Part shown: piece by piece, positions 1 to 62,526 of the stretch
Layout of the letters: each line of letters opens with the position of its first letter
How positions within the stretch are numbered: the stretch's first letter is position 1
NCBI GenBank assembly: GCA_964016885.1
Contig: OZ024741.1
Coordinates: 21,824,001 to 21,888,000, forward strand
Source: Eledone cirrhosa
Lineage: Eukaryota
DNA length: 64,000 nt
Reading direction: 5' to 3'
Translations under genes and position numbers: made by a program
The notes under the pieces: generated by a model
Seen by the model: the letters and a program-made list of their open reading frames with translations, nothing else
What the model was told of the DNA's origin: nothing
The model's database searches: none

Positions 1-3000
1 AGATTGTCTCCTAGTATTAATTCTGGTTCTTTGCTTTCTCAGTTCCAATCCCACCGAGAGATTGTCTCCTATTATTAGTTCTGGTTCTCTGCTTTATCAG
101 TCACAATCCCACCGAGAGATTGTCTCCTAGTATTAGTTCTGGTTCTCTGCTCTCTCAATTCCAATCCCACCGAGAGAATGTCTCCTAGTATTAGTTCTGG
201 TTCTCTGCTTTCTCAGTTCCAATCCCACCGAGAGAGTGTCTTCTAGTACTAGTTCTGGTTCTCTGCTTTCTCAGTTCAAATCCCACCGAGAGAATGTCTT
301 CTAGTATTAGTTCTGGTTCTCTGCTTTCTCAGTTCAAATCCCACCGAGAGATTGTCTCCTGGTATTAGTTCTGGTACTCTGCTTTCTCAGTTCCAATCCC
401 ACCAAGAGAATGTCTCCTAGTATTAGTTCTTGTTCTCTGCTCTGTCAGTTCAAATACCACTGAGAGTATGTCTCCTAGTATTAGTTCTGGTACTCTGCTT
501 TCTCAGTTCCAATCCCACCGAGAGAGTGTCTTCGAGTATTAGTTCTGGTTCTCTGCTTTCTCAGTTCCAATCCCACCGAGAGAATGTCTCCTAGTATTAG
601 TTCTGGTTCTCTGCTTTCTCAGTTCCAATCCCACCAAGAGAATGTCTCCTAGTATTAGTTCTGGTTCTCTGCTTTCTCAGTTCAAATTCCACCGAGAGAA
701 TGTCTTTTAGTATTAGTTCTGGTTCTCTGCTTTCCCCGTTCAAATCCCACCGAGAGATTGTCTCCTGGTATTAGTTCTGGTACTCTGCTTTCTCAATTCA
801 AATCCCACCGAGAGATTGTCTCCTAGTATTAATTCTGGTTCTCTGCTCTCTCAGTTCCAATCCCACCGAGAGAATGTCTCCTAGTATTAGTTCTGGTTCT
901 CTGCTTTTTCAGTTCCAATCCCACCGAGAGATTGTCTCCTAGTATTAGTTCTGGTTCTCTGCTCTCTCAGTTCCAATCCCACCGAGAGAATGTCTCCTAG
1001 TATTAATTCTGGTTCTCTGCTCTCTCAGTTCCAATCCCACCGAGAGAATGTCTCCTAGAATTAGTTCTGGTTCTCTGCTTTTTCAGTTCCAATCCCACCG
1101 AGAGATTGTCTCCTAGTATTAGTTCTGGTTCGCTGCTTTCTCAGTTCCAATCCCACCGAGAGATTGTCTCCTGGTATTAGTTCTGGTTCTCTGCTCTCTC
1201 AGTTCCAATCCCACCGAGAGAATGTCTCCTAGTATTAGTTCTGGTTCTCTGCTTTCTCAGTTCCAATCCCACCGAAAGATTGTCTCCTAGTATTAGTTCT
1301 GGTTCTCTGCTCTCTCAGTTCCAATCCCACCGAGAGATTGTCTCCTGGTATTAGTTCTGGTTCTCTGCTTTCTCAGTTCCAATCCCACTGAGAGAATGTC
1401 TCCTAGTATTAGTTCTGGTTCTCTGCTCTCTCAGTTCCAATCCCACCGAGAGAATGTCTCCTAATATTAGTTCTGGTTCTCTGCTTTCTCAGTTCCAATC
1501 CCACCGAGAGATTGTCTCCTGGTATTAGTTCTGGTACTCTGCTTTCTCAGTTCCAATCCCACCAAGAGAATGTCTCCTAGTATTAGTTCTTGTTCTCTGC
1601 TCTGTCAGTTCAAATGCCACCGAGAGTATGTCTCCTAGTATTAGTTCTGGTACTCTGCTTTCTCAGTTCCAATCCCACCGAGAGAGTGTCTTCTAGTATT
1701 AGATCTGGTTCTCTGCTTTCTCAGTTCCAATCCCACCGAGAGAATGTCTCCTAGTATTAGTTCTGGTTCTCTGCTTTCTCAGTTCCAATCCCACCGAGAG
1801 AATGTCTCCTAATATTAGTTCTGGTTCTCTGCTTTTTCAGTTCCAATCCCACCGAGAGATTGTCTCCTAGTATTAGTTCTGGTTCTCTGCTTTCTCAGTT
1901 CCAATCCCACCGAGAGATTGTCTCCTAGTATTAGTTCTGGTTCTCTGCTTTCTCACTTCCACTCCCACCGAGAGATTGTCTCCTCGTATTAGTTCTGGTT
2001 CTCTGCTTTCTCAGTTCCAATCCCACCGAGAGATTGTCTCCTAGTATTAGTTCTGGTTCTCTGCTCTCTCAGTTCCAATCCCACCGAGAGAATGTCTCCT
2101 AGTATTAGTTCTGGTTCTCTGCATTTTCAGTTCCAATCCCAACGAGAGATTGTCTGCTAGTATTAGTTCTGGTTCTCTGCTCTCTCAGTTCCAATCCCAC
2201 CGAGAGATTGTCTCCTGGTATTAGTTCTGGTTCTCTGCTCTCTCAGTTCCAATCCCACCGAGAGAATGTCTCCTAGTATTAGTTCTGGTTCTCTGCTTTC
2301 TCAGTTCCAATCCCACCGAAAGATTGTCTCCTAGTATTAGTTCTGGTTCTCTGCTCTCTCAGTTCCAATCCCACCGAGAGATTGTCTCCTGGTATTAGTT
2401 CTGGTTCTCTGCTCTCTCAGTTCCAATCCCACCGAGAGAATGTCTCCTGGTATTAGTTCTGGTTCTCTGCTCTCTCAGTTCCAATCCCACCGAGAGAATG
2501 TCTCCTAGTATTTGTTCTGGTTCTCTGCTTTCTCAGTTCCAATCCCACCGAAAGATTGTCTCCTGGTATTAGTTCTGGTTCTCTGCTCTCTCAGTTCCAA
2601 TCCCACCGAGAGAATGTCTCCTAGTATTAGTTCTGGTTCTCTGCTTTCTCAGTTCCAATCCCACCGAGATATTGTCTCCTAGTATTAGTTCTGGTTCTCT
2701 GCTTTCTCAGTCCCAATACCACCGAGAGAATGTCTCCTAGTATTAGTTCTGGTTCTCTGCTTTCTCAGTTCCAATCCCACCGAGAGATTGTCTCCTAGTA
2801 TTAATTCTGGTTCTCTGCTTTCTCAGTTCCAATCCCACCGAGAGATTGTCTCCTAGTATTAATTCTGGTTCTTTGCTTTCTCAGTTCCAATCCCACCGAG
2901 AGATTGTCTCCTATTATTAGTTCTGGTTCTCTGCTTTATCAGTCACAATCCCACCGAGAGATTGTCTCCTAGTATTAGTTCTGGTTCTCTGCTCTCTCAA

Positions 3001-6000
3001 TTCCAATCCCACCGAGAGAATGTCTCCTAGTATTAGTTCTGGTTCTCTGCTTTCTCAGTTCCAATCCCACCGAGAGAGTGTCTTCTAGTACTAGTTCTGG
3101 TTCTCTGCTTTCTCAGTGCAAATCCCACCGAGAGAATGTCTTCTAGTATTAGTTCTGGTTCTCTGCTTTCTCAGTTCAAATCCCACCGAGAGATTGTCTC
3201 CTGGTATTAGTTCTGGTACTCTGCTTTCTCAGTTCCAATCCCACCAAGAGAATGTCTCCTAGTATTAGTTCTTGTTCTCTGCTCTGTCAGTTCAAATACC
3301 ACTGAGAGTATGTCTCCTAGTATTAGTTCTGGTACTCTGCTTTCTCAGTTCCAATCCCACCGAGAGAGTGTCTTCTAGTATTAGTTCTGGTTCTCTGCTT
3401 TCTCAGTTCCAATCCCACCGAGAGAATGTCTCCTAGTATTAGTTCTGGTTCTCTGCTTTCTCAGTTCCAATCCCACTGAGAGAATGTCTCCTAGTATTAG
3501 TTCTGGTTCTCTGCTCTCTCATTTCCAATCCCACCGAGAGAATGTCTCCTAGTATTAGTTCTGGTTCTCTGCTTTCTCAGTTCCAATCCCACCAAGAGAA
3601 TGTCTCCTAGTATTAGTTCTGGTTCTCTGCTTTCTCAGTTCAAATTCCACCGAGAGAATGTCTTTTAGTATTAGTTCTGGTTCTCTGCTTTCCCCGTTCA
3701 AATCCCACCGAGAGATTGTCTCCTGGTATTAGTTCTGGTACTCTGCTTTCTCAATTCAAATCCCACCGAGAGATTGTCTCCTAGTATTAATTCTGGTTCT
3801 CTGCTCTCTCAGTTCCAATCCCACCGAGAGAATGTCTCCTAGTATTAGTTCTGGTTCTCTGCTTTTTCAGTTCCAATCCCACCGAGAGATTGTCTCCTAG
3901 TATTAGTTCTGGTTCTCTGCTCTCTCAGTTCCAATCCCACCGAGAGAATGTCTCCTAGTATTAATTCTGGTTCTCTGCTCTCTCAGTTCCAATCCCACCG
4001 AGAGAATGTCTCCTAGAATTAGTTCTGGTTCTCTGCTTTTTCAGTTCCAATCCCACCGAGAGATCGTCTCCTAGTATTAGTTCTGGTTCTCTGCTCTCTC
4101 AGTTCCAATCCCACCGAGAGAATGTCTCCTAGTATTAGTTCTGGTTCTCTGCTTTTTCAGTTCCAATCCCACCGAAAGATTGTCTCCTAGTATTAGTTCT
4201 GGTTCGCTGCTTTCTCAGTTCCAATCCCACCGAGAGATTGTCTCCTGGTATTAGTTCTGGTTCTCTGCTCTCTCAGTTCCAATCCCACCGAGAGAATGTC
4301 TCCTAGTATTAGTTCTGGTTCTCTGCTTTCTCAGTTCCAATCCCACCGAAAGATTGTCTCCTAGTATTAGTTCTGGTTCTCTGCTCTCTCAGTTCCAATC
4401 CCACCGAGAGATTGTCTCCTGGTATTAGTTCTGGTTCTCTGCTTTCTCAGTTCCAATCCCACTGAGAGAATGTCTCCTAGTATTAGTTCTGGTTCTCTGC
4501 TCTCTCAGTTCCAATCCCACCGAGAGAATGTCTCCTAGTATTAGTTCTGGTTCTCTGCTTTCTCAGTTCCAATCCCACCGAGAGAGTGTCTTCTAGTATT
4601 AGTTCTGGTTCTCTGCTTTCTCAGTTCCAATCCCACCGAGAGAATGTCTCCTAGTATTAGTTCTGGTTCTCTGCTTTCTCAGTTCCAATCCCACTGAGAG
4701 AATGTCTCGTAGTATTAGTTCTGGTTCTCTGCTCTCTCATTTCCAATCCCACCGAGAGAATGTCTCCTAGTATTAGTTCTGGTTCTCTGCTTTCTCAGTT
4801 CCAATCCCACCAAGAGAATGTCTCCTAGTATTAGTTCTGGTTCTCTGCTTTCTCAGTTCAAATTCCACCGAGAGAATGTCTTCTAGTATTAGTTCTGGTT
4901 CTCTGCTTTCCCCGTTCAAATCCCACCGAGAGATTGTCTCCTGGTATTAGTTCTGGTACTCTGCTTTCTCAATTCAAATCCCACCGAGGGATTGTCTCCT
5001 AGTATTAATTCTGGTTCTCTGCTCTCTCAGTTCCAATCCCACCGAGAGAATGTCTCCTAGTATTAATTCTGGTTCTCTGCTCTCTCAGTTCCAATCCCAC
5101 CGAGAGAATGTCTCCTAGTATTAGTTCTGGTTCTCTGCTTTTTCAGTTCCAATCCCACCGAGAGATTGTCTCCTAGTATTAGTTCTGGTTCTCTGCTCTC
5201 TCAGTTCCAATCCCACCGAGAGAATGTCTCCTAGTATTAATTCTGGTTCTCTGCTCTCTCAGTTCCAATCCCACCGAGAGAATGTCTCCTAGTATTAGTT
5301 CTGGTTCTCTGCTTTTTCAGTTCCAATCCCACCGAGAGATTGTCTCCTAGTATTAATTCTGGTTCTCTGCTCTCTCAGTTCCAATCCCACCGAGAGAATG
5401 TCTCCTAGTATTAGTTCTGGTTCTCTGCTTTTTCAGTTCCAATCCCACCGAGAGATTGTCTCCTAGTATTAGTTCTGGTTCTCTGCTCTCTCAGTTCCAA
5501 TCCCACCGAGAGAATGTCTCCTAGTATTAGTTCTGGTTCTCTGCTCTCTCAATTCCAATCCCACCGAGAGAATGTCTCCTAGTATTAGTTCTGGTTCTCT
5601 GCTTTCTCAGTTCCAATCCCACCGAGAGATTGTCTCCTAGTATTAGTTCTGGTTCTCTGCTCTCTCAGTTCCAATCCCACCGAGAGAATGTCTCCTAGTA
5701 TTAGTTCTGGTTCTCTGCCTTTTCAGTTCCAATCCCACCGAGAGATTGTCTCCTAGTATTAGTTCTGGTTCTCTGCTTTCTCAGGTCCAGTCCCACCGAG
5801 AGATTGTCTCCTAGTATTAGTTCTGGTTCTCTGCTTTCTCAGTTCCAATCCCACCGAGAGATTGTCTCCTAGTATTAGTTCTGGTTCTCTGCTTTCTCAG
5901 TTCCAATCCCACCGAGAGATTGTCTCCTAGTATTAGTTCTGGTTCTCTGCTTTCTCAGTTCCAATCCCACCGAGAGATTGTCTCCTCGTATTAGTTCTGG

Positions 6001-9000
6001 TTCTCTGCTTTCTCAGTTCCAATCCCACCGAGAGATTGTCTCCTAGTATTAGTTCTGGTTCTCTGCTCTCTCAGTTCCAATCCCACCGAGAGAATCTCTC
6101 CTAGTATTAGTTCTGGTTCTCTGCTTTTTCAGTTCCAATCCCACCGAGAGATTGTCTGCTAGTATTAGTTCTGGTTCTCTGCTTTTTCAGTTCCAATCCC
6201 ACCGAGAGATTGTCTGCTAGTATTAGTTCTGGTTCTCTGCTTTCTCAGTTCCAATCCCACCGAGAGAATGTCTCCTAGTATTAGTTCTGGTTCTCTGCTT
6301 TCTCAGTTCCAATCCCACCGAAAGATTGTCTCCTAGTATTAGTTCTGGTTCTCTGCTTTCTCAGTTCCAATCCCACCGAGATATTGTCTCCTAGTATTAG
6401 TTCTGGTTCTCTGCTTTCTCAGTCCCAATCCCACCGAGAGAATGTCTCCTAGTATTAGTTCTGGTTCTCTGCTTTCTCAGTTCCAATACCACCGAGATAT
6501 TGTCTCCTAGTATTAGTTCTGGTTCTCTGTTTTCTCAGTTCCAATCCCACCAAGAGATTGTCTCCTCGTATTAGTTCTGGTTCTCTGCTTTCTCAGTTCC
6601 AATCCCACCGAAAGATTGTCTCCTAGTATTAGTTCTGGTTCTCTGCTCTCGCAGTTCCAATCCCACCGAGAGATTGTCTCCTAATATTAGTTCTGGTTCT
6701 CTGCTTTCTCAGTTCCAATCCCACCGAGAGATTGTCTCCTAGTATTAGTTCTGGTTCTCTGCTTTCTCAGTTCCAATCCCACCGAGAGATTGTCTCCTAG
6801 TATTAATTCTGGTTCTTTGCTTTCTCAGTTCCAATCCCACCGAGAGATTGTCTCCTATTATTAGTACTGGTTCTCTGCTTTCTCAGTTCCAATCCCACCG
6901 AGAGATTGTCTCCTAGTATTAGTTCTGGTTCTCTGCTCTCTCAATTCCAATCCCACCGAGAGAATGTCTCCTAGTATTAGTTCTGGTTCTCTGCTTTCTC
7001 AGTTCCAATCCCACCGAGAGAGTGTCTTCTAGTATTAGTTCTGGTTCTCTACTTTCTCAGTTCAAATCCCACCGAGAGAATGTTTTCTAGTATTAGTTCT
7101 GGTTCTCTGCTTTCTCAGTTCAAATCCCACCGAGAGATTGTCTCCTGGTATTAGTTCTGGTACTCTGCTTTCTCAGTTCCAATCCCACCAAGAGAATGTC
7201 TCCCAGTATTAGTTCTTGTTCTCTGCTCTGTCAGTTCAAATGCCACCGAGAGTATGTCTCCTAGTATTAGTTCTGGTACTCTGCTTTCTCAGTTCCAATC
7301 CCACCGAGAGAGTGTCTTCTAGTATTAGATCTGGTTCTCTGCTTTCTCAGTTCCAATCCCACCGAGAGAATGTCTCCTAGTATTAGTTCTGGTTCTCTGC
7401 TTTCTCAGTTCCAATCCCACCGAGAGAGTGTCTTCTAGTATTAGTTCTGGTTCTCTGCTTTCTCAGTTCCAATCCCACCGAGAGAATGTCTCCTAGTATT
7501 AGTTCTGGTTCTCTGCTTTCTCAGTTCCAATCCCACCGAGAGAATGTCTCCTAGTATTAGTTCTGGTTCTCTGCTCTCTCAGTTCCAATCCCACCGAGAG
7601 AATGTCTCCTAGCATTAGTTCTGGTTCTCTGCTCTCTCATTTCTAATCCCAGCGAGAGAATGTCTCCTAGTATTAGTTCTGGTTCTCTGCTTTCTCAGTT
7701 CCAATCCCACCGAGAGATTGTCTCCTAGTATTAATTCTGGTTCTTTGCTTTCTCAGTTCCAATCCCACCGAGAGATTGTCTCCTATTATTAGTTCTGGTT
7801 CTCTGCTTTCTCAGTTCCAATCCCACCGAGAGATTGTCTCCTAGTATTAGTTCTGGTTCTCTGCTCTCTCATTTCTAATCCCACCGAGAGATTGTCTCCT
7901 AGTATTAGTTCTGGTTCTCTGCTTTCTCAGTTCCAATCCCACCGAGAGAATGTCTTCTAGTATTAGTTCTGGTTCTCTGCTTTCTCAGTTCCAATCCCAC
8001 CGAGAGAATGTCTCCTAGTATTAGTTCTGGTTCTCTGCTTTCTCAGTTCCAATCCCACCGAGAGAATGTCTTCTAGTATTAGTTCTGGTTCTCTGCTTTC
8101 TCAGTTCAAATTCCTCCGAGAGAATGTCTCCTAGTATTAGTTCTGGTTCTCTGCTTTCTCAGTTCCAATCCCACCGAGATATTGTCTCCTAGTATTAGTT
8201 CTGGTTCTCTGCTTTCTCAGTTCCAATCCCACCGAGAGAATGTCTCCTAGTATTAGTTCTGGTTCTCTGCTTTCTCAGTTCCAAACCCACCAAGAGAATG
8301 TCTCCTGGTATTAGTTCTTGTTCTCTGCTCTGTCAGTTCTAATCCCAGCGAGAGAATGTCTCCTAGTATTAGTTCTGGTTCTCTGCTTTCTCAGTTCCAA
8401 TCCCACCGAGAGATTGTCTCCTAGTATTAATTCTGGTTCTTTGCTTTCTCAGTTCCAATCCCACCGAGAGATTGTCTCCTATTATTAGTTCTTGTTCTCT
8501 GCTTTCTCAGTTCCAATCCCACCGAGAGATTGTCTCCTAGTATTAGTTCTGGTTCTCTGCTCTCTCATTTCTAATCCCACCGAGAGATTGTCTCCTAGTA
8601 TTAGTTCTGGTTCTCTGCTTTCTCAGTTCCAATCCCACCGAGAGAATGTCTTCTAGTATTAGTTCTGGTTCTCTGCTTTCTCAGTTCCAATCCCACCGAG
8701 AGAATATCTCCTAGTATTAGTTCTGGTTCTCTGCTTTCTCAGTTCCAATCCCACCGAGATATTGTCTCCTAGTATTAGTTCTGGTTCTCTGCTTTCTCAG
8801 TTCAAATTCCACCGAGAGAATGTCTCCTAGTATTAGTTCTGGTTCTCTGCTTTCTCAGTTCCAATCCCACCGAGATATTGTCTCCTAGTATTAGTTCTGG
8901 TTCTCTGCTTTCTCAGTTGCAATCCCACCGAGATATTGTCTCCTAGTATTAGTTCTGGTTCTCTGCTTTCTCAGTTCCAATCCCACCGAGAGATTGTCTC

Positions 9001-12000
9001 CTAGTATTAGTTCTGGTTCTCTGCTTTCTCAGTTCCAAACCCACCAAGAGAATGTCTCCTAGTATTAGTTCTTGTTCTCTGCTCTGTCAGTTCAAATCCC
9101 ACCGAGAGTATGTCTCCTAGTATTAGTTCTGGTTCTCCATTTTCTCAGTTCGAATCCCACCGAGATATTGTCTCCTAGTATTAGTTCTGGTTCTCTGCTC
9201 TCTCAGTTCCAATCCGACCGAGAGATTGTCTCCTAGTATTAGTTCTGGTTCTCTGCTCTCTCGGTTCCAATCCCACCGAGAGAGTGTCTTCTAGTATTAG
9301 TTCTGGTTCTCTGCTTTCTCAGTTCCAATCCCACCGAGAGATTGTCTCCTCGTATTAGTTCTGGTTCTCTGCTTTCTCAGTTCCAATCCCACCGAGAGAA
9401 TGTCTCCTAGTATTAGTTCTGGTTCTCTGCTCTCTCAGTTCCAATCCCACCAAGAGAATGTCTCCTAGTATTAGTTCTGGTTCTCTGCTTTCTCAGTTCA
9501 AATCCCACCGTGAGATTGTCTCCTAGTATTAGTTCTGGTTCTCTGCTCTCTCAATTCCAATCCCACCGAGAGAATGTCTCCTAGTATTAGTTCTGGTTCT
9601 CTGCTTTCTCAGTTCCAATCCCACCGAGATAGTGTCTTCTAGTATTAGTTCTGGTTCTCTACTTTCTCAGTTCAAATCCCACCGAGAGAATGTTTTCTAG
9701 TATTAGTTCTGGTTCTCTGCTTTCTCAGTTCAAATCCCACCGAGAGATTGTCTCCTGGTATTAGTTCTGGTACTCTGCTTTCTCAGTTCCAATCCCACCA
9801 AGAGAATGTCTCCCAGTATTAGTTCTTGTTCTCTGCTCTGTCAGTTCAAATGCCACCGAGAGTATGTCTCCTAGTATTAGTTCTGGTACTCTGCTTTCTC
9901 AGTTCCAATCCCACCGAGAGAGTGTCTTCTAGTATTAGATCTGGTTCTCTGCTTTCTCAGTTCCAATCCCACCGAGAGAATGTCTCCTAGTATTAGTTCT
10001 GGTTCTCTGCTTTCTCAGTTCCAATCCCACCGAGAGAGTGTCTTCTAGTATTAGTTCTGGTTCTCTGCTTTCTCAGTTCCAATCCCACCGAGAGAATGTC
10101 TCCTAGTATTAGTTCTGGTTCTCTGCTTTCTCAGTTCCAATCCCACCGAGAGAATGTCTCCTAGTATTAGTTCTGGTTCTCTGCTCTCTCAGTTCCAATC
10201 CCACCGAGAGAATGTCTCCTAGTATTAGTTCTGGTTCTCTGCTCTCTCATTTCTAATCCCAGCGAGAGAATGTCTCCTAGTATTAGTTCTGGTTCTCTGC
10301 TTTCTCAGTTCCAATCCCACCGAGAGATTGTCTCCTAGTATTAATTCTGGTTCTTTGCTTTCTCAGTTCCAATCCCACCGAGAGATTGTCTCCTATTATT
10401 AGTTCTGGTTCTCTGCTTTCTCAGTTCCAATCCCACCGAGAGATTGTCTCCTAGTATTAGTTCTGGTTCTCTGCTCTCTCATTTCTAATCCCACCGAGAG
10501 ATTGTCTCCTAGTATTAGTTCTGGTTCTCTGCTTTCTCAGTTCCAATCCCACCGAGAGAATGTCTTCTAGTATTAGTTCTGGTTCTCTGCTTTCTCAGTT
10601 CCAATCCCACCGAGAGAATGTCTCCTAGTATTAGTTCTGGTTCTCTGCTTTCTCAGTTCCAATCCCACCGAGAGAATGTCTTCTAGTATTAGTTCTGGTT
10701 CTCTGCTTTCTCAGTTCAAATTCCTCCGAGAGAATGTCTCCTAGTATTAGTTCTGGTTCTCTGCTTTCTCAGTTCCAATCCCACCGAGATATTGTCTCCT
10801 AGTATTAGTTCTGGTTCTCTGCTTTCTCAGTTCCAATCCCACCGAGAGAATGTCTCCTAGTATTAGTTCTGGTTCTCTGCTTTCTCAGTTCCAAACCCAC
10901 CAAGAGAATGTCTCCTGGTATTAGTTCTTGTTCTCTGCTCTGTCAGTTCTAATCCCAGCGAGAGAATGTCTCCTAGTATTAGTTCTGGTTCTCTGCTTTC
11001 TCAGTTCCAATCCCACCGAGAGATTGTCTCCTAGTATTAATTCTGGTTCTTTGCTTTCTCAGTTCCAATCCCACCGAGAGATTGTCTCCTATTATTAGTT
11101 CTTGTTCTCTGCTTTCTCAGTTCCAATCCCACCGAGAGATTGTCTCCTAGTATTAGTTCTGGTTCTCTGCTCTCTCATTTCTAATCCCACCGAGAGATTG
11201 TCTCCTAGTATTAGTTCTGGTTCTCTGCTTTCTCAGTTCCAATCCCACCGAGAGAATGTCTTCTAGTATTAGTTCTGGTTCTCTGCTTTCTCAGTTCCAA
11301 TCCCACCGAGAGAATATCTCCTAGTATTAGTTCTGGTTCTCTGCTTTCTCAGTTCCAATCCCACCGAGATATTGTCTCCTAGTATTAGTTCTGGTTCTCT
11401 GCTTTCTCAGTTGCAATCCCACCGAGATATTGTCTCCTAGTATTAGTTCTGGTTCTCTGCTTTCTCAGTTCCAATCCCACCGAGAGATTGTCTCCTAGTA
11501 TTAGTTCTGGTTCTCTGCTTTCTCAGTTCCAAACCCACCAAGAGAATGTCTCCTAGTATTAGTTCTTGTTCTCTGCTCTGTCAGTTCAAATCCCACCGAG
11601 AGTATGTCTCCTAGTATTAGTTCTGGTTCTCCATTTTCTCAGTTCGAATCCCACCGAGATATTGTCTCCTAGTATTAGTTCTGGTTCTCTGCTCTCTCAG
11701 TTCCAATCCGACCGAGAGATTGTCTCCTCGTATTAGTTCTGGTTCTCTGCTCTCTCGGTTCCAATCCCACCGAGAGAGTGTCTTCTAGTATTAGTTCTGG
11801 TTCTCTGCTTTCTCAGTTCCAATCCAAACGAGAGATTGTCTCCTCGTATTAGTTCTAGTTCTCTGCTTTCTCAGTTCCAATCCCACCGAGAGAATGTCTC
11901 CTAGTATTAGTTCTGGTTCTCTGCTCTCTCAGTTCCAATCCCACCAAGAGAATGGCTCCTAGTATTAGTTCTGGTTCTCTGCTTTCTCAGTTCAAATCCC

Positions 12001-20993: not shown

Positions 20994-21018
20994 AGCATAT
21001 AAACAATATGCCCCCCCC

Positions 21019-21160: not shown

Positions 21161-21294
21161 TCAAGCCAGATCAGTTCCTGTATGAGCAAGGCATGGTCAG
21201 CCGACCAGACACTGCCCACAACAGGACAACCCGTCTAACCCATACTAGCGTGGAAGAACGGACGTAAAACGGTGATGATGATGATGATGATGAT

Positions 21295-21303
21295 ATATAT
21301 ATA

Positions 21304-21358
<55 letters not shown>

Positions 21359-50300: not shown

Positions 50301-53300
50301 AGACTGCCAATCTACCACCCTTGCAAAGCATGGTGTACGACCCTCTACCGATACTGCCAATCCACCGCCCTTACAAAGCATAGTGTCCGACCCTCTACCG
50401 ATACTGCCAATCCACCACCCTAGTATGGCGTCCCACCCTCTACCAAGACTGCGAATCCACCACCCTAGCATGGTGTCCCACCCTCTACCGTGACTGCCAA
50501 TCCACCACCCTAGCATGGTGTGCGACCCTCTACCGATACTGCCAATCCACCACCCTTACAAAGCATGGTGTCTGACCCTCTACCGATACTGCCAATCCCC
50601 CACCCTAGCATGGTGTTCGACCCTCTACCGAGACTGCCAATCTACTACCCTTGCAAAGCATGGTGTCTGACCCTCTACCGAGACTGCTAATCTACCGCCC
50701 TTACAAAGCATGGTGTCCGACCCTCTACCTACCGATACTGCCAATCGACCACCCGTGCAAAGCATGGTGTCTGACCCTCTACCGAGACTGCCAATCTACC
50801 GACCTTACGAAGCAGGGTGTCTGACCCTCTACCGAGACTGCCAATCTACCGCCCTTACAAAGCATGGTGTCCAACCCTCTACCGATACTGCCAATCCACC
50901 ACCCTTACAAAGCATGTTGTTCGACCCTCTACCGAGACTGCCAATCCACCACCCTTACAAAGCATGGTGTCCGACCCTCTACCGATACTGCCAATCCACC
51001 GCACTTACAAAGCATGGTGTCCGACCCTCTACCGATACTGCCAATCCACCACCCTTACAAAGCATGGTGTCCGACCCTCTACCGAGACTGCCAATCCACT
51101 ACCCTTACAAAGCATGGTGTCCGACCCTCTACCAATACTACCAATCTGCCACCCTAGCATGGTGTCCGACCGTCTACCGAGACTGCCAATCCACCACCCT
51201 AGCATGGTGTCCGACCCTCTACCGAGACTGCCAATCCACCACCCTAGCATGGTGTCCCACCCTCTGCCAACACTGCCAATCCACCACCCTAGTATGGTGT
51301 CCCACCCTCTACCAAGACTGCCAATCCACCACCCTAGCATGGTGTCCCACCCTCTACCGAGACTGCCAATCCACCACCCTAGCATGGTGTCCGACCCTCT
51401 ACCGATACAGCCAATCTACCACCCTAGCATGGTGTCCGACCCTCTACTGATACAGCCAATCTACCACCCTAGTATGGTGTCCGACCCTCTACCGAGACTG
51501 CCAATACACCAATCTTACAAAGCATGGTGTCTGACCCTCTACCGATACTGCCAATCCACCACCCTAGTATGGTGTCCGACCCTCTATCGAGACTGTCAAT
51601 CCACCACCCTTGCAAAGCAGGGTGTCTGACCCTCTACCGATACTGCCAATCTACCGCCCTTAAAAAGCATGGTGTCTGACCCTTACCGAGACTGCCAATC
51701 CAGCACCCTTACAAAGCATGGTGTCCGACCCTCTACCGATACTGCCAATCCACCGCCCTTACAAAGCATGGTGTCCGACCCTCTAACGATACTGCCAATC
51801 CACCACCCTTACAAAGCATGGTGTCCGACCCTCTAACGATACTGCCAATCCACCGCCCTTACAAAGCATTGTGTCCGACCCTCTACCGAGACTGCCAATC
51901 CAGCACCCTAACATGGTGTCCGACCCTCTACCGAGACTGCCAATCCACCACCCTAGCATGGTGTCCGACCCTCTACCGATACTGCCAATCCACCACCCTA
52001 GCATGGTGTCCGACCCTCTACCTACACTGCCAATCCACCGCCCTAGCATGGTGTCCGACCCTCTACCGATACTGCCAATCCACCGCCCTAGCATGGTGTC
52101 CGACCCTCTACCGATACTGCCAATCCACCACCCTAGCATGGTGTCCCACCCTCTACCGATACTGCCAATCCACTACCCTAGCATGGTGTCCCACCCTCTA
52201 CCGAGACTGCCAATCCACCACCCTAGCATGGTGTCCCACCCTCTACCAAGTTTGCCAATCCACCACCCTAGCATGGTGTCCGACCCTCTACCTACCGATA
52301 CTGCCAATCCACCACCTTAGCATGGTGTCCCACCCTCTACCGATACTGCCAATCCACCACCCTAGTATGGTGTCCCACCCTCTACCGATACTGCCAATCC
52401 ACCACCCTAGCATGGTGTCCCACCCTCTACCGATACTGCCAATCCAACACCCTAGGATGGTGTCCGACCCTCTACCGAGACTGCCAATCCACCACCCTAA
52501 CATGGTGTCCGACCCTCTACTGAGACTGCCAATCCACAACTCTTACAAAGCATGGTGTCTGACCCTCTACCGATACTGCCAATCCACCACCCTTACAAAG
52601 CATGGTATCCGACCCTCTACTGAGACTGCCAATCCACCACTCTTACAAAGCATGGTGTCCGACCCTCTACCGATACTGCCAATCCACCGCCCTTACAAAG
52701 CATAGTGTCCCACCCTCTACCGAGATTGCCAATCCACCACCCTAGCATGGTGTCCGACCCTCTACCGATATAGCCAATCTACCACCGTAGCATAGTGTAC
52801 GACCCTCTACCGATACTGCCAATCCACCACCCTTACAAAGCATGGTGTCCGACCCTCTACCGAGACTGCCAATCCACCACCCTAGCATGGTGTTCGACCC
52901 TCTACCGAGACTGCCAATCTACCACCCTTGCAAAGCATGGTGTCTGACCCTCTACCGAGACTGCTAATCTACCGCCCTTACAAAGCATGGTGTCCGACCC
53001 TCTACCTACCGATACTGCCAATCGACCACCCGTGCAAAGCATGGTGTCTGACCCTCTACCGAGACTGCCAATCTACCGACCTTACGAAGCAGGGTGTCTG
53101 ACCCTCTACCGAGACTGCCAATCTACCGCCCTTACAAAGCATGGTGTCCAACCCTCTACCGATACTGCCAATCCACCACCCTTACAAAGCATGTTGTTCG
53201 ACCCTCTACCGAGACTGCCAATCCACCACCCTTACAAAGCATGGTGTCCGACCCTCTACCGATACTGCCAATCCACCGCCCTTACAAAGCATGGTGTCCG

Positions 53301-56300
53301 ACCCTCTACCGATACTGCCAATCCACCACCCTTACAAAGCATGGTGTCCGACCCTCTACCGAGACTGCCAATCCACCACCCTTACAAAGCATGGTGTCCG
53401 ACCCTCTACCAATACTACCAATCTGCCACCCTAGCATGGTGTCCGACCGTCTACCGAGACTGCCAATCCACCACCCTAGCATGGTGTCCGACCCTCTACC
53501 GAGACTGCCAATCCACCACCCTAGCATGGTGTCCCACCCTCTGCCAACACTGCCAATCCACCACCCTAGTATGGTGTCCCACCCTCTACCAAGACTGCCA
53601 ATCCACCACCCTAGCATGGTGTCCCACCCTCTACCGAGACTGCCAATCCACCACCCTAGCATGGTGTCCGACCCTCTACCGATACAGCCAATCTACCACC
53701 CTAGCATGGTGTCCGACCCTCTACCGATACAGCCAATCTACCACCCTAGTATGGTGTCCGACCCTCTACCGAGACTGCCAATACACCAACCTTACAAAGC
53801 ATGGTGTCCGACCCTCTACCGATACTGCCAATCCACCACCCTAGTATGGTGTCCGACCCTCTATCGAGACTGTCAATCCACCACCCTTTCAAAGCAGGGT
53901 GTCTGACCCTCTACCGATACTGCCAATCTACCGCCCTTAAAAAGCATGGTGTCTGACCCTTACCGAGACTGCCAATCCAGCACCCTTACAAAGCATGGTG
54001 TCCGACCCTCTACCGATACTGCCAATCCACCGCCCTTACAAAGCATGGTGTCCGACCCTCTAACGATACTGCCAATCCACCACCCTTACAAAGCATGGTG
54101 TCCGACCCTCTAACGATACTGCCAATCCACCGCCCTTACAAAGCATGGTGTCCGACCCTCTACCGAGACTGCCAATCCAGCACCCTAACATGGTGTCCGA
54201 CCCTCTACCGAGACTGCCAATCCACCACCCTAGCATGGTGTCCGACCCTCTACCGATACTGCCAATCCACCACCCTAGAATGGTGTCCGACCCTCTACCT
54301 ACACTGCCAATCCACCGCCCTAGCATGGTGTCCGACCCTCTACCGATACTGCCAATCCACCGCCCTAGCATGGTGTCCGACCCTCTACCGATACTGCCAA
54401 TCCACCACCCTAGCATGGTGTCCCACCCTCTACCGATACTGCCAATCCACTACCCTAGCATGGTGTCCCACCCTCTACCGAGACTGCCAATCCACCACCC
54501 TAGCATGGTGTCCCACCCTCTACCAAGTTTGCCAATCCACCACCCTAGCATGGTGTCCGACCCTCTACCTACCGATACTGCCAATCCACCACCTTAGCAT
54601 GGTGTCCCACCCTCTACCGATACTGCCAATCCACCACCCTAGTATGGTGTCCCACCCTCTACCGATACTGCCAATCCACCACCCTAGCATGGTGTCCCAC
54701 CCTCTACCGATACTGCCAATCCAACACCCTAGGATGGTGTCCGACCCTCTACCGAGACTGCCAATCCACCACCCTAACATGGTGTCCGACCCTCTACTGA
54801 GACTGCCAATCCACAACTCTTACAAAGCATGGTGTCCGACCCTCTACCGATACTGCCAATCCACCACCCTTACAAAGCATGGTATCCGACCCCCTACTGA
54901 GACTGCCAATCCACCACTCTTACAAAGCATGGTGTCCGACCCTCTACCGATACTGCCAATCCACCGCCCTTACAAAGCATAGTGTCCCACCCTCTACCGA
55001 GACTGCCAATCCACCACCCTAGCATGGTGTCCGACCCTCTACCGATATAGCCAATCTACCACCGTAGCATAGTGTACGACCCTCTACCGAGACTGCCAAT
55101 CCACCACCCTAGCATGGTGTTCGACCCTCTACCGAGACTGCCAATCTACCACCCTTGCAAAGCATGGTGTCTGACCCTCTACCGAGACTGCCAATCTACC
55201 GACCTTACAAAGCATAGTGTCCGACCCTCTACCGATACTGCCAATCTACCACCCTTGCAAAGCATGGTGTCTGACCCTCTACCGAGACTGCCAATCTACC
55301 GACCTTACAAAGCATGGTGTCCGACCCTCTACCGTTACATCCAATCCACCACACTAGAGTGGTGTTCGACCCTCTACCGAGACTGCCAATCTACCACCCT
55401 TGCAAAGCATGGTGTACGACCCTCTACCGATACTGCCAATCCACCGCCCTTACAAAGCATAGTGTCCGACCCTCTACCGATACTGCCAATCCACCACCCT
55501 AGTATGGCGTCCCACCCTCTACCAAGAATGCGAATCCACCACCCTAGCATGGTGTCCCACCCTCTACCGTGACTGCCAATCCACCACCCTAGCATGGTGT
55601 ACGACCCTCTACCGATACTGCCAATCCACCACCCTTACAAAGCATGGTGTCCGACCCTCTACCGATACTGCCAATCCCCCACCCTAGCATGGTGTTCGAC
55701 CCTCTACCGAGACTGCCAATCTACCACACATGCAAAGCATGGTGTCTGACCCTCTACCGAGACTGCTAATCTACCGCCCTTACAAAGCATGGTGTCCGAC
55801 CCTCTACCTACCGATACTGCCAATCGACCACCCGTGCAAAGCATGGTGTCTGACCCTCTACCGAGACTGCCAATCTACCGACCTTACGAAGCAGGGTGTC
55901 TGACCCTCTACCGAGACTGCCAATCTACCGCCCTTACAAAGCATGGTGTCCAACCCTCTACCGATACTGCCAATCCACCACCCTTACAAAGCATGTTGTT
56001 CGACCCTCTACCGAGACTGCCAATCCACCACCCTTACAAAGCATGGTGTCCGACCCTCTACCGATACTGCCAATCCACCGCCCTTACAAAGCATGGTGTC
56101 CGACCCTCTAACGATACTGCCAATACAACACCCTAGCATGGTGTCCGACCCTCTACCGACACTGCCAATCCACCACCCGAGCATGGTGTCCGACACTCTA
56201 CCGAGACTGCCAATCCACCACCCTAGCATGGTGTCCCACCCTCTACCGAGACTGCCAATCCAACACCCTAACATGGTGTCCGATCCTCTACCGAGACTGC

Positions 56301-59300
56301 CAATCCAACACCCTAACATGGTGTCCGATCCTCTACCGAGACTGCCAATCCAACACCCTAACATGGTGTCCGAGCCTCTACCGAGACTGCCAATCCACCA
56401 CCCTAGCATAGTGTCCGACCCTCTACCGATACTGCCAATCCACCACCCTAGCATGGTGTCCGACCCTCTACCTACACTGCCAATCCACCGCCCTAGCATG
56501 GTGTCCGACCCTCTACCGATACTGCCAATCCACCACCATAGCATGGTGTCCCACCCTCTACCGAGACTGCCAATCCACCACCCTAGCATGGTGTCCCACC
56601 CTCTACCGATACTGCCAATCCACCACCCTAGCATGGTGTCCGATCCTCTACCTACACTGCCAATCCACCGCCCTAGCATGGTGTCCGACCCTCTAGCGAT
56701 ACTGCCAATCCACCACCCTAGCATGGTGTCCCACCCTCTACCGATACTGCCAATCCACCAGCCTAGCATGGTGTCCCACCCTCTACCGATACTGCCAATC
56801 CACCACCCTAGCATGGTGTCCGACCCTCTACCTACACTGCCAATCCACCACCCTAGCATGGTGTCCGACCCTCTACCGATACAGCCAATCTACCACCCTA
56901 GCATGGTGTACGACCCTCTACCGATACTGCCAATCCACCGCCCTTACAAAGCATGGTGTCCGACCCTCTAACGATACTGCCAATCCACCACCCTTACAAA
57001 GCATGGTGTCCGACCCTCTAACGATACTGCCAATCCACCGCCCTTACAAAGCATGGTGTCCGACCCTCTACCGAGACTGCCAATCCAGCACCCTAACATG
57101 GTGTCCGACCCTCTACCGAGACTGCCAATCCACCACCCTAGCATGGTGTCCGACCCTCTACCGATACTGCCAATCCACCACCCTAGCATGGTGTCCGACC
57201 CTCTACCTACACTGCCAATCCACCGCCCTAGCATGGTGTCCGACCCTCTACCGATACTGCCAATCCACCGCCCTAGCATGGTGTCCGACCCTCTACCGAT
57301 ACTGCCAATCCACCACCCTAGCATGGTGTCCCACCCTCTACCGATACTGCCAATCCACTACCCTAGCATGGTGTCCCACCCTCTACCGAGACTGCCAATC
57401 CACCACCCTAGCATGGTGTCCCACCCTCTACCAAGTTTGCCAATCCACCACCCTAGCATGGTGTCCGACCCTCTACCTACCGATACTGCCAATCCACCAC
57501 CTTAGCATGGTGTCCCACCCTCTACCGATACTGCCAATCCACCACCCTAGTATGGTGTCCCACCCTCTACCGATACTGCCAATCCACCACCCTAGCATGG
57601 TGTCCCACCCTCTACCGATACTGCCAATCCAACACCCTAGGATGGTGTCCGACCCTCTACCGAGACTGCCAATCCACCACCCTAACATGGTGTCCGACCC
57701 TCTACTGAGACTGCCAATCCACAACTCTTACAAAGCATGGTGTCCGACCCTCTACCGATACTGCCAATCCACCACCCTTACAAAGCATGGTATCCGACCC
57801 CCTACTGAGACTGCCAATCCACCACTCTTACAAAGCATGGTGTCCGACCCTCTACCGATACTGCCAATCCACCGCCCTCACAAAGCATAGTGTCCCACCC
57901 TCTACCGAGACTGCCAATCCACCACCCTAGCATGGTGTCCGACCCTCTACCGATATAGCCAATCTACCACCGTAGCATAGTGTACGACCCTCTACCGAGA
58001 CTGCCAATCCACCACCCTAGCATGGTGTTCGACCCTCTACCGAGACTGCCAATCTACCACCCTTGCAAAGCATGGTGTCTGACCCTCTACCGAGACTGCC
58101 AATCTACCGACCTTACAAAGCATAGTGTCCGACCCTCTACCGATACTGCCAATCTACCACCCTTGCAAAGCATGGTGTCTGACCCTCTACCGAGACTGCC
58201 AATCTACCGACCTTACAAAGCATGGTGTCCGACCCTCTACCGTTACATCCAATCCACCACACTAGAGTGGTGTTCGACCCTCTACCGAGACTGCCAATCT
58301 ACCACCCTTGCAAAGCATGGTGTACGACCCTCTACCGATACTGCCAATCCACCGCCCTTACAAAGCATAGTGTCCGACCCTCTACCGATACTGCCAATCC
58401 ACCACCCTAGTATGGCGTCCCACCCTCTACCAAGAATGCGAATCCACCACCCTAGCATGGTGTCCCACCCTCTACCGTGACTGCCAATCCACCACCCTAG
58501 CATGGTGTACGACCCTCTACCGATACTGCCAATCCACCACCCTTACAAAGCATGGTGTCCGACCCTCTACCGATACTGCCAATCCCCCACCCTAGCATGG
58601 TGTTCGACCCTCTACCGAGACTGCCAATCTACCACACTTGCAAAGCATGGTGTCTGACCCTCTACCGAGACTGCTAATCTACCGCCCTTACAAAGCATGG
58701 TGTCCGACCCTCTACCTACCGATACTGCCAATCGACCACCCGTGCAAAGCATGGTGTCTGACCCTCTACCGAGACTGCCAATCTACCGACCTTACGAAGC
58801 AGGGTGTCTGACCCTCTACCGAGACTGCCAATCTACCGCCCTTACAAAGCATGGTGTCCAACCCTCTACCGATACTGCCAATCCACCACCCTTACAAAGC
58901 ATGTTGTTCGACCCTCTACCGAGACTGCCAATCCACCACCCTTACAAAGCATGGTGTCCGACCCTCTACCGATACTGCCAATACAACACCCTAGCATGGT
59001 GTCCGACCCTCTACCGACACTGCCAATCCACCACCCGAGCATGGTGTCCGACACTCTACCGAGACTGCCAATCCACCACCCTAGCATGGTGTCCCACCCT
59101 CTACCGAGACTGCCAATCCAACACCCTAACATGGTGTCCGATCCTCTACCGAGACTGCCAATCCAACACCCTAACATGGTGTCCGATCCTCTACCGAGAC
59201 TGCCAATCCAACACCCTAACATGGTGTCCGAGCCTCTACCGAGACTGCCAATCCACCACCCTAGCATAGTGTCCGACCCTCTACCGATACTGCCAATCCA

Positions 59301-62300
59301 CCACCCTAGCATGGTGTCCGACCCTCTACCTACACTGCCAATCCACCGCCCTAGCATGGTGTCCGACCCTCTACCGATACTGCCAATCCACCACCATAGC
59401 ATGGTGTCCCACCCTCTACCGAGACTGCCAATCCACCACCCTAGCATGGTGTCCCACCCTCTACCGATACTGCCAATCCACCACCCTAGCATGGTGTCCG
59501 ACCCTCTACCTACACTGCCAATCCACCGCCCTAGCATGGTGTCCGACCCTCTAGCGATACTGCCAATCCACCACCCTAGCATGGTGTCCCACCCTCTACC
59601 GATACTGCCAATCCACCACCCTAGCATGGTGTCCCACCCTCTACCGATACTGCCAATCCACCACCCTAGCATGGTGTCCGACCCTCTACCTACACTGCCA
59701 ATCCACCACCCTAGCATGGTGTCCGACCCTCTACCGATACAGCCAATCTACCACCCTAGCATGGTGTACGACCCTCTACCGATACTGCCAATCCACCACC
59801 CTTACAAAGCATGGTGTCTGACCCTCTACCGATACTGTCAATCCACCACCCTTGCAAAGCAGGGTGTCTGACCCTCTACCGATACTGCCAATCCACCACC
59901 CTAGCATGGTGTTCGACCCTCTACCGAGACTGCCAATCTACCACCCTTGCAAAGCATGGTGTCCGACCCTCTACCGAGACTGTCAATCCACCACCCTTGC
60001 AAAGCAGGGTGTCTGACCCTCTACCGATACTGCCAATCCACCACCCTAGCATGGTGTTCGACCCTCTACCGAGACTGCCAATCTACCACCCTTGCAAAGC
60101 ATGGTGTCCGACCCTCTACCGAGACTGTCAATCCACCACCCTTGCAAAGCAGGGTGTCTGACCCTCTACCGATACTGCCAATCCACCACCCTAGCATGGT
60201 GTACGACCCTCTACAGAGACTGCCAATCTACCACCCTTGCAAAGCATGGTGTCCGACCCTCTACCGAGACTGTCAATCCACCACCCTTGCAAAGCAGGGT
60301 GTCTGACCCTCTACCGATACTGCCAATCCACCACCCTAGCATGGTGTCCGACCCTCTACCGATACATCCAATCCACCACCCTAGTATGGTGTCCGACCCT
60401 CTACCTACCGATACTGCCAATCGACCACCCTTACAAAGCAGGGTGTCCGACCCTCTACAGATACTGCGAATCTACCACCCTTACAAAGCATGGTGTCTGA
60501 CCCTCTACCGATACTGCCAATCCACCACCCTTACAAAGCATGGTGTATGACCCTCTACCGAGACTGCCAATCTACCACCCTTACAAAGCATGGTGTCTGA
60601 CCCTCTACCGAGACTGCCAATCCACCACCCTTACAAAGCATGGTGTCTGACCCTCTACCGAGACTGCCAATCTACCACCCTTACAAAGCATGGTGTCCGA
60701 CCCTCTACCGATACTGCCAATCTACCACCCTTACAAAGCATGGTGTCCGACCCTCTACCGATACTGCCAATCTACCACCCTTACAAAGCATGGTGTCCGA
60801 CCCTCTACCGATACTGCCAATCTACCACCCTTACAAAGCATGGTGTCTGACCCTCTACCGATACTGCCAATCTACCACCCTTACAAAGCATGGTGTCCGA
60901 CCCTCTACCGATACTGCCAATCTACCACCCTTACAAAGCATGGTGTCCGACCCTCTACCGATACTGCCAATCTACCACCCTTACAAAGCATGGTGTCCGA
61001 CCCTCTACCGATACTGCCAATCTACCACCCTTACAAAGCATGGTGTCCGACCCTCTACCGATACTGCCAATCTACCACCCTTACAAAGCATGGTGTCCGA
61101 CCCTCTACCGATACTGCCAATCTACCACCCTTACAAAGCATGGTGTCCGACCCTCTACCGATACTGCCAATCTACCACCCTTACAAAGCATGGTGTCCGA
61201 CCCTCTACCGAGACTGCCAATCTACCACCCTTACAAAGCATGGTGTCCGACCCTCTACCGATACTGCCAATCTACCACCCTTACAAAGCATGGTGTCCGA
61301 CCCTCTACCGATACTGCCAATCTACCACCCTTACAAAGCATGGTGTCCGACCCTCTACCGATACTGCCAATCTACCACCCTTACAAAGCATGGTGTCCGA
61401 CCCTCTACCGATACTGCCAATCTACCACCCTTACAAAGCATGGTGTCCGACCCTCTACCGATACTGCCAATCTACCACCCTTACAAAGCATGGTGTCCGA
61501 CCCTCTACCGAGACTGCCAATCTACCACCCTTACAAAGCATGGTGTCCGACCCTCTACCGATACTGCCAATCTACCACCCTTACAAAGCATGGTGTCCGA
61601 CCCTCTACCGATACTGCCAATCTACCACCCTTACAAAGCATGGTGTCCGACCCTCTACCGATACTGCCAATCTACCACCCTTACAAAGCATGGTGTCCGA
61701 CCCTCTACCGATACTGCCAATCTACCACCCTTACAAAGCATGGTGTCCGACCCTCTACCGATACTGCCAATCTACCACCCTTACAAAGCATGGTGTCCGA
61801 CCCTCTACCGATACTGCCAATCTACCACCCTTACAAAGCATGGTGTCCGACCCTCTACCGATACTGCCAATCTACCACCCTTACAAAGCATGGTGTCCGA
61901 CCCTCTACCGATACTGCCAATCTACCACCCTTACAAAGCATGGTGTCCGACCCTCTACCGAGACTGCCTATCCACCACCCTGGCATGGTGTTCGACCCTC
62001 TACCGAGACTGCCAATCTACCGACCTTACAAAGCATGGTGTCCGACCCTCTACCGATACTGCCAATCCACCACCCTTACAAAGCATGGTGTCTGACCCTC
62101 TACCGAGACTGCCAATCTACCACCCTTACAAAGCATGGTGTCCGACCCTCTACCGATACTGCCAATCTACCACCCTTACAAAGCATGGTGTCCGACCCAC
62201 TACCGATACATCCAATCCACCACCCTAGCATGGTGTTCGACCCTCTACCAAGACTGCCAATCCACCACCCTAGCATGGTGTCCCACCCTCTACCAAGACT

Positions 62301-62526
62301 GACAATCCACCACCCTAGCATGGTGTCCGACCCTCTACCGAGACTGCCAATCCACCACCCTAGCATGGTGTCCCACCCTCTACCGAGACTGCCAATCCAC
62401 CACCCTAGCATGGTGTCCGACCCTCTACCTACACTGCCAATCCACCACCCTAGCATGGTGTCCCACCCTCTACCTGTACTATTAATCCACCACCCTAGCA
62501 TGGTGTCCCACCCTCTACCGAGACTG
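29320..62526 (-). repeat. Satellite B, mixed 45-bp/50-bp tandem repeat (~700 monomers) derived from the SINE 5' end
   Basis: + strand unit AGCATGGTGTCCGACCCTCTACCGAKACTGCCAATCCACCACCCT (45 bp) with or without TACAA (50 bp), plus occasional CTAC insertions. Minus strand equals the first ~45-50 nt of the adjoining SINE. Confidence 0.97.
29341..29352 (-). promoter_or_regulatory. Pol III A-box-like element of the SINE
   Basis: TGGCAGTCTCGG (TGGCAGTATCGG in many SatB units), ~12 nt from the SINE 5' end and ~53 nt upstream of the B box. Imperfect match to TRGCNNARYNNG. Confidence 0.6.

What the first reader, a model, noticed from the sequence alone, without database searches (positions are those of the whole stretch)
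1..62526. Two convergent satellites tile the two halves (A box and B box) of one SINE promoter
Seen: SatA TCTcAGTTCAAATCCCaCCGAG (A-variant monomers) matches the local SINE TCTgAGTTCAAATCCCgCCGAG at 20/22 positions. Upstream landmarks are roughly colinear (ATG..AG.A..TGG..TCT spans 36 vs 37 nt). SatA thus corresponds to SINE nt ~40-97 and SatB to nt 1-45/50: adjacent, barely overlapping halves, amplified separately, on opposite strands and only ~320 bp apart. Inference: the SINE head is a recurrent satellite-seeding substrate, with both monomers breaking near the same CATG/AATG position, suggesting a mechanistic breakpoint (RT template slippage or a structure-linked break). A functional A-box-array/B-box-array pairing is speculative.
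Basis: partly seen in the sequence, partly recalled or inferred. Interest (0 to 1): 0.85.

Follow-up and report, generated by a model that had tools for sequence, protein, structure and literature searches.

The report
Twin satellites from tail-to-tail SINEs
Two neighbouring blocks of repeated DNA in an animal genome (likely an octopus) are each built from a piece of a short jumping element and each still ends in the rest of its own parent copy; they likely grew separately by ordinary DNA duplication, a process already known from reptiles, and nothing here shows that they act together as a promoter.

Summary
The core observation holds. SatA (58 bp, 380 units, +) matches the local SINE only in the 22-nt B-box stretch. 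However, dispersed copies of a sister subfamily align to nearly the whole unit without gaps (80-84%) and run on into SINE head and body. SatA is SINE nt 38-96. SatB (45/50 bp, about 700 units, -) is nt 1-45/50 of another subfamily. Each array has its own parent. The units overlap by 8-13 nt, breaks that close arise by chance 16-26% of the time, SatA's junction shows no microhomology, only 62 of 380 units keep a canonical B box, and the boxes lie on opposite strands. These are SINE-derived satellites as described in squamates (PMC10702118), whose snake sSat3 unit (nt 42-108, with box B) parallels SatA. I found no cephalopod report. The scan noted LINE-derived equivalents elsewhere in this genome. 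New member of a known kind.

The parts
1..19252 (+). SatA, left block: 331 units of 58 bp, 4.8% mean divergence from consensus, higher-order lag 2610 bp (45 units); open at the window's left edge
19253..26122 (+). 6.87-kb composite insertion that splits SatA nearly in phase: two 5'-truncated RT+PHD LINE pieces with (GAT)n tails (19253-21292, 23804-26122), (AT)n tracts and an 880-bp piece between them
26123..29002 (+). SatA, right block: 49 units; last full unit in SINE phase 28905-28962 (= SINE nt 38-96 of a sister subfamily); last partial unit 28963-29002 stops at SINE nt 79
29003..29140 (+). Decayed body and tail of SatA's parent SINE (SINE-1): resumes at SINE nt 94, so the 14 nt holding the B box are missing at the junction; 43 identities in 64 aligned letters to the local SINE nt 94-157; 29053-29140 is a multi-copy SINE tail
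   Evidence: (0 of 2000 shuffles reach the score), tables 2, 5, 5c, 7
29170..29364 (-). SINE-2, 195 nt, parent of SatB: nt 1 = 29364, A-box-like word nt 13-24 (29352-29341), B box nt 80-90 (29285-29275), body, ATT-type tail; member of a very high-copy dispersed family
29319..62526 (-). SatB: 698 unit anchors, 384 spacings of 45 and 268 of 50 among 697; = SINE nt 1-45/50; 5.3-6.4% divergence; higher-order lags 5450, 2737, 2908 bp; 50-mers dominate next to the SINE body; far end cut mid-unit by a microsatellite

Best explanation
SatA and SatB are two SINE-derived satellites, each still attached to the 3' part of its own parent copy; the two parents belong to different subfamilies of one tRNA-type SINE and lie tail to tail, and each array likely began with a separate small tandem duplication and likely grew by ordinary DNA-level recombination. 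Shown: the origin of both units, the two parent bodies, the different subfamilies, kilobase higher-order repeats in both arrays, loss of the canonical B box in most SatA units. Inferred: (1) two SINEs of a very abundant family landed about 30 bp apart in opposite orientation; (2) in the + copy nt 38-96 was duplicated without microhomology (end-joining or replication-fork repair), in the - copy nt 1-50 was duplicated, either at DNA level or by the reverse transcriptase re-copying the 5' end, and the 45-mer likely arose from the 50-mer by a 5-nt loss; (3) unequal exchange or break-induced replication then copied blocks of 45-120 units in a region prone to tandem expansion (86% of the window is these arrays); (4) LINE pieces later inserted into SatA. 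The apparent tiling of A and B boxes is likely a by-product of both units being cut from the first 100 nt of a 195-nt element.
For:: in run X8, which shows no SatA-specific letters, all 8 listed contig pieces start at 28905 and cover 55-57 letters with 9-11 differences and no gaps (the longest of 5,449 pieces; 24 shown); loose ends run into SINE body behind 28959-28962 in all 4 runs (392 reads in X10) and into a SINE head before 28917-28918 in 3 of 4 (X1 110+166, X4 58+84, X8 140+159 contigs); 14 of 15 shown joints link the unit to the spacer tail 29052-29123 within single contigs; spacer aligns to SINE nt 94-157 on the + strand, 0 of 2000 shuffles; 89,094-211,804 records laid per run; SatB consensus carries the majority SINE letter at 3 of 4 listed head sites; lags of 2610 and 2737-5450 bp; B-box columns no better conserved than the rest (0.952 vs 0.952); two SINE-state letters travel together in a minority class (30 of 50 vs 48 of 328 units). 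PMC10702118 describes the same architecture (tandem units plus a terminal unit that continues to the SINE end).
Against: The first duplications are not observed: the leading ends of both arrays are missing (SatA off the window, SatB cut at 62526), so microhomology at SatB's 5' break cannot be checked and an RNA-level origin of SatB remains open. No run bridges the SatA-spacer junction (depth 0 at 28993-29002 in 4 of 4 runs). Two adjacent SINEs both seeding arrays above 20 kb is a coincidence that the model assigns to regional propensity without a genome-wide count. Loose-end consensuses mix subfamilies (agreement 0.5-0.75). Units share descent, so the association is not an independent-sample test.
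Confidence: 0.72

Rival explanations
1. The anticodon-arm region of tRNA-type SINE heads (about nt 38-50) is a preferred break site, through reverse-transcriptase slippage or RNA structure, so satellites seeded there split the promoter into an A half and a B half.
For: SatA starts at nt 38 and SatB ends at nt 45/50. The snake sSat3 unit, from an unrelated SINE, spans nt 42-108 and includes box B (PMC10702118). SatB's 5' break coincides with the element's 5' end, as an RNA-level event would give.
Against: Breaks 8 and 13 nt apart; chance 16% (within 7 nt) to 26% (within 12 nt) under a uniform model. SatA's junction keeps both AG words, so no microhomology was used. None of the 15 best-supported joints shown (of 966) falls at nt 38-50; they join SINE tails to following copies or duplicate nt 75-115. 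The squamate paper reports units covering 5', middle and 3' parts, and variable in short loci.
Confidence: 0.12
2. The inverted SINE pair is itself the cause: it forms a hairpin or cruciform that breaks or stalls forks, and repair seeded tandem expansion outward on both sides.
For: Both arrays start within about 100 nt of homologous inverted bodies and extend outward. Instability of close inverted Alu pairs is recalled from the literature, not checked here.
Against: The bodies are now only 43/64 identical and about 140 bp apart at their nearest homologous ends; no inverted repeat joins them; the region folds no better than shuffles (z -0.40, 68 of 200 as good). The parents are of different subfamilies, so they were never identical. 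A SatB-type junction appears in organism B while SatA is not seen there, hinting at different ages.
Confidence: 0.1
3. The arrays form a functional pair, an A-box array and a B-box array that recruit TFIIIC or Pol III together, or the B boxes alone act as a TFIIIC boundary element.
For: 62 canonical B-box words lie in SatA and 37 on the + strand of SatB. TFIIIC binds SINE-type elements in mammals (PMC7014570, listing and start of abstract only).
Against: A type 2 promoter needs A before B on one strand at short range (established knowledge); here they face each other. 250 of 380 SatA units have C at the conserved purine; B-box columns are not extra conserved; SatA has 0 strict A boxes on either strand and SatB 0 strict A boxes; the unit joined to the parent body lacks the B box altogether.
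Confidence: 0.04
4. SatA resembles the SINE only through a generic B-box word or chance.
For: Against the local copy only 22 nt align, and the upstream 40 nt are not significant; MAFFT misplaces that part.
Against: Near full-length ungapped alignment to dispersed copies with correct flanks on both sides, and a parent body in register.
Confidence: 0.01

Closest known systems
SINE-derived satellites (sSat1-3) of squamate reptiles, Vassetzky, Kosushkin and Ryskov 2023, PMC10702118 (main text parts 1-4 of 5 read; supplements not read)
   Same: Unit is a sub-portion of a tRNA-type SINE; array ends in a longer terminal unit that continues to the SINE terminus; hundreds of units, about 94-95% homogeneous; several variants from different parts of one SINE in one genome. 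Snake sSat3 (67 nt, nt 42-108, box B included) parallels SatA.
   Different: Different SINE family and, likely, a mollusc host; units shorter (45-58 vs about 70-290 nt); two arrays from two subfamilies sit 315 bp apart on tail-to-tail parents, which the text read does not describe; chromosomal position unknown.
Tandem-like and palindromic SINE structures of bivalves, PMC11481361 (passages)
   Same: Molluscan tRNA SINEs in direct tandems and in inverted pairs; inverted pairs are 23% of such structures in one clam.
   Different: Those arrays have 2-15 near-full-length elements; here hundreds of 45-58-nt partial units with higher-order repeats.
Octopus tRNA-derived SINEs OR1, OR2, OK (Ohshima and Okada 1994; seen only as citations in PMC4758252 and PMC4824008)
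   Same: From recall, the element resembles OR2-type octopus SINEs; earlier notes of this scan call the genome octopus-like.
Pol III-type tandem repeats of amphibians (PolIII/TAN, Xenopus OAX/satellite I, Rana/polIII), as summarised in PMC10702118
   Same: Tandem repeats containing tRNA-like promoter sequence.
   Different: Those 200-360-nt or longer units hold a whole tRNA-like region and some are transcribed in vitro; here each unit holds one box only, and the dispersed parent SINE is demonstrated.

Membership tests
SINE-derived satellite (sSat) | Unit is homologous to part of a dispersed SINE family and shorter than it | tested here: met
   SatA = nt 38-96, SatB = nt 1-45/50 of a 195-nt element
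SINE-derived satellite (sSat) | At least four head-to-tail middle units, homogenised | tested here: met
   380 and about 700 units, 4.5-6.4% from consensus
SINE-derived satellite (sSat) | Terminal unit continues into the SINE up to its terminus | tested here: met
   SatB into 29318-29170; SatA into 29003-29140 with a 14-nt gap; leading ends not visible
SINE-derived satellite (sSat) | Subtelomeric or heterochromatic position | not testable with these tools
   No genome held
tRNA-type SINE (parent element) | High-copy, dispersed, 100-500 nt, defined 5' end, simple-repeat tail, non-coding | tested here: met
   89,094-211,804 records laid per run in 4 of 4 runs; heterogeneous flanks past 29364 and before 29170
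tRNA-type SINE (parent element) | A and B boxes in order on one strand | tested here: inconclusive
   Canonical B box at nt 80-90; the A-box-like word at nt 13-24 misses the strict consensus I used (recalled) by one position
tRNA-type SINE (parent element) | Head alignable to a tRNA model | tested here: not met
   ARAGORN 0 genes; no Rfam tRNA hit at E up to 10. The tRNA origin rests on the boxes and on recall; long A-B spacing (55 nt) could defeat these models
Octopus OR2 SINE or MetaSINE superfamily | Match to the published consensus or central domain | tested here: inconclusive
   Four short motifs not found in the one searchable supplement of PMC4824008; alignments there are figures; no OR2 sequence available
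Type 2 Pol III promoter formed by the two arrays | A box upstream of B box on the same strand within about 30-90 nt | tested here: not met
   Opposite strands; 0 strict A boxes in SatA; 0 B boxes on SatB's SINE-sense strand

The most novel reading that the evidence does not exclude
A close inverted pair of SINEs is a bidirectional satellite nursery, and tRNA heads break preferentially just inside the anticodon arm (nt 38-50): the same cut yields B-box units of 58 nt here and 67 nt in snakes, in unrelated SINEs of different phyla. Satellite birth from SINEs would then be predictable from element anatomy and neighbour geometry.
Probability: 0.15. Interest if true: 0.68.

Novelty: new member of a known kind. 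Interest (0 to 1): 0.38.

Why it matters
The squamate paper left open whether SINE-derived satellites occur outside scaled reptiles. This locus gives two large, clear cases in what is likely a cephalopod, each with its parent copy still attached, so both breakpoints of SatA and the 3' break of SatB can be read to the base. It is a good natural record of satellite birth and makes the breakpoint-bias question directly testable in one genome. It does not reveal a new mechanism or a function.

Tried and rejected
No whole genome is held, so the genome-wide catalogue, co-occurrence test and chromosomal position stay open. Pattern scans for the SINE found 0 loci in metagenome, genome and viral contigs. 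ARAGORN found 0 tRNAs. Rfam gave only sub-threshold hits, mostly microRNA models on the (AT)n tracts. The run search listed no RNA holder, which says nothing about expression. The LINE protein search did not name the host: best full-length hits 59% identical, named hits a hydrozoan, a lancelet, a fish and one bacterial-bin record. Multiple alignment of SatA with the local SINE was uninformative. A nested-insertion origin of SatB predicts a minus-strand SINE remnant (nt 51 onward) beyond the tail; the body (nt 91-195) scored 14 on that strand, below the shuffle mean of 18.7. A present-day hairpin between the two parents was not found. Look-ups of earlier notes by place (near), by sequence (three stretches) and by words returned nothing for this locus or these units. 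Paper searches with 0 hits.

Full report
Layout. Tandem Repeats Finder shows a 58-bp array at 1-19252 and 26123-29003 (SatA) and a 45/50-bp array at 29319-62526 (SatB); together they cover 86% of the window. SatA has 331 + 49 units, 4.8% and 4.5% from consensus. SatB has 698 unit anchors; of 697 spacings 384 are 45 bp and 268 are 50 bp, at 6.4% and 5.3% divergence. SatA is split nearly in phase by a 6.87-kb insertion with two reverse-transcriptase LINE pieces. No genome is held. The host is an animal; 'octopus' comes from unchecked earlier notes and my recall of the SINE, and the protein search did not settle it.

SatB and the local SINE. On the minus strand the last SatB unit begins at 29364 and runs without a break into a 195-nt element with a canonical B box at nt 80-90 and an ATT-type tail at 29170. 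Laying four public runs on it placed 89,094 to 211,804 records per run; flanks become heterogeneous past 29364 and before 29170, so this is a very high-copy dispersed element with its 5' end where the SatB unit starts. In raw-read run X10 depth at nt 50-65, outside the SatB unit, is as high as in the head, so these reads are mostly dispersed copies. The SatB consensus carries their majority letter at 3 of the 4 head sites listed (31 rows were not shown). SatB is therefore nt 1-50 of this subfamily, with a 45-nt form. The 50-mers dominate next to the parent body, and the 45-mer is likely a derivative.

SatA and the SINE. Against the local copy only 22 nt align (nt 75-96): 20/22 in 35 of 380 units, 19/22 in 228, a score that 0 of 3000 shuffles reached. 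The decisive test was to lay the same runs on 28893-29175. In run X8, where no contig shows SatA's diagnostic letters, all 8 listed pieces begin at 28905, the start of the unit, and cover 55-57 letters with 9-11 differences and no gaps. These are the longest of 5,449 pieces, of which 24 were shown, so they are the best cases. Loose ends continue into SINE body after the unit in all 4 runs, and into a SINE head before it in 3 of 4. That head ends GGAC before AGAATG, which fixes the start at nt 38 in local numbering, and differs from the SatB head. SatA is nt 38-96 of a sister subfamily. Two SINE-state letters co-occur in a minority of units (30 of 50 against 48 of 328), as an older unit class would; units are not independent, so I give no weight to the P value.

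A second parent in the spacer. Window 29003-29068 aligns on the + strand to local SINE nt 94-157 with 43 identities, 21 mismatches and 2 gap letters; 0 of 2000 shuffles reach the score. Window 29053-29140 is a multi-copy tail whose loose ends lead back into SINE body, and 14 of the 15 shown joints (32 in all, 1-3 contigs each) link the SatA unit to this tail within one contig, with SINE-body letters between. So SatA also ends in its parent. The last partial unit stops at nt 79 and the body resumes at nt 94: the B box is missing there. The two parents lie tail to tail about 30 bp apart. One X1 contig at depth 7.2 spans 29053-29175 with 2 differences, and 1-2 X10 reads cover the spacer, so that join looks real and low-copy; X1 may be the window's own source. 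No run bridges 28993-29002.

Breakpoints. The units overlap at nt 38-45 or 38-50. The CATG/AATG word lies inside the overlap and neither break is at it. Under independent uniform breaks, one SatA break falls within 7 nt of SatB's internal break 16% of the time and within 12 nt 26%. SatA's junction keeps the AG of both sides, so it shows no microhomology. SatB's other break is the element's own 5' end, which fits either a DNA duplication or re-copying by the reverse transcriptase; the flank that would tell is lost. Of 966 joints the 15 shown are tail-to-next-copy joins or a duplication of nt 75-115; none is at nt 38-50, but this is a small displayed sample, not a catalogue.

Function. SatA holds 62 canonical B-box words in 380 units, 250 units have C at the conserved purine, and the B-box columns are as variable as the rest (0.952 against 0.952). 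No strict A box occurs in SatA on either strand or in SatB, whose commonest A-box-like states are the parent subfamily's one-mismatch word (237) and a further variant (202). SatB has 0 B boxes on its SINE-sense strand and 37 on the other. The box consensuses are recalled. The two arrays cannot form a type 2 promoter; B-box-only TFIIIC binding is not excluded but has no support here.

Mechanism. Exact 150-mers recur most often at 2610 bp (45 units) in SatA and at 5450, 2737 and 2908 bp in SatB, the mark of DNA-level block duplication. I infer two independent initial duplications followed by unequal exchange or break-induced replication in an expansion-prone region. Earlier notes describe neighbouring arrays born from LINE pieces elsewhere in this genome (e1-9515023, unchecked), which fits a regional tendency. 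A hairpin between the parents is not present today. Summed contig depth over SatA in X1 is about 115,000 against 7.2 in the spacer, hinting at thousands of units, though the tool warns that this is no copy number. SatA was not seen in organisms B and E, while one joint in organism B has the spacing of the SatB 45-mer junction; contigs show presence, not absence, so different ages are only a lead.

Comparison. PMC10702118 (main text parts 1-4 of 5 read; supplement list seen, files not read, 7 unreadable) defines SINE-derived satellites in squamates with this same architecture, arrays up to 320-1200 units, variants from different SINE parts in one genome, and a snake unit at nt 42-108 that includes box B. 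It states that it is uncertain whether such satellites are restricted to squamates. Its supplements could hold unit positions or paired loci that I did not see. PMC11481361 (passages) reports short direct and inverted SINE tandems in bivalves. PMC4758252 and PMC4824008 (passages; one supplement searched) only cite the octopus SINEs. Searches listed no report of SINE-derived satellites in cephalopods; the library lacks most subscription papers.

Verdict. A real and well-preserved case of two SINE-derived satellites on tail-to-tail parents of different subfamilies. It is a new member of a known kind, probably the first in this animal group. The shared-breakpoint and paired-promoter readings are not supported. 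Interest 0.38.

Noticed in passing
window 19253-26122: Composite insertion in SatA: two different 5'-truncated RT+PHD LINE pieces (1492 identities, 415 mismatches between them), both with open frames over 580 codons and (GAT)n tails, with no clear target-site duplication; the array resumes nearly in phase.
   Followed up: partly
window 22850-22880, minus strand: Hammerhead-core-like motif (CTGAnGA, 4-bp stem, GAAA) in an 880-bp piece between two (AT)n tracts, recalled as typical of Penelope-like element ends; the closing stem was not found and Rfam gave no hit.
   Followed up: partly
window 21293-22759: 1.47-kb (AT)n tract punctuated by recurring CC pairs, itself forming a higher-order microsatellite directly after a LINE tail.
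   Followed up: no
window 25794-26025: 112-bp perfect-looking tandem duplication (2.1 copies, 98%) in the 3' UTR of the second LINE piece: a seed-stage duplication of the kind that could start an array.
   Followed up: no
window 62527-64000: SatB is cut mid-unit by a TG/TA microsatellite, followed by the 5' part of another LINE with an endonuclease-like frame (recognised by eye); SatB may resume beyond it.
   Followed up: no
window 29169-29365, table 5: Head-to-tail joins of full-length SINE copies are frequent in three organisms' data (for example 68 contigs in X1 and 53 in X4 for one joint), and a duplication of about nt 75-115 appears in X1, X4 and X8.
   Followed up: no
window 29324-29355, one search run X4: Organism B shows a several-fold excess of depth over the SINE head relative to nt 50-65 and one SatB-type junction: either a large SatB-like satellite or another subfamily sharing the head.
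   Followed up: no
window 29365-62526, plus strand: A single-letter variant of the SatB unit creates a canonical B-box word on the antisense strand in 37 places.
   Followed up: no
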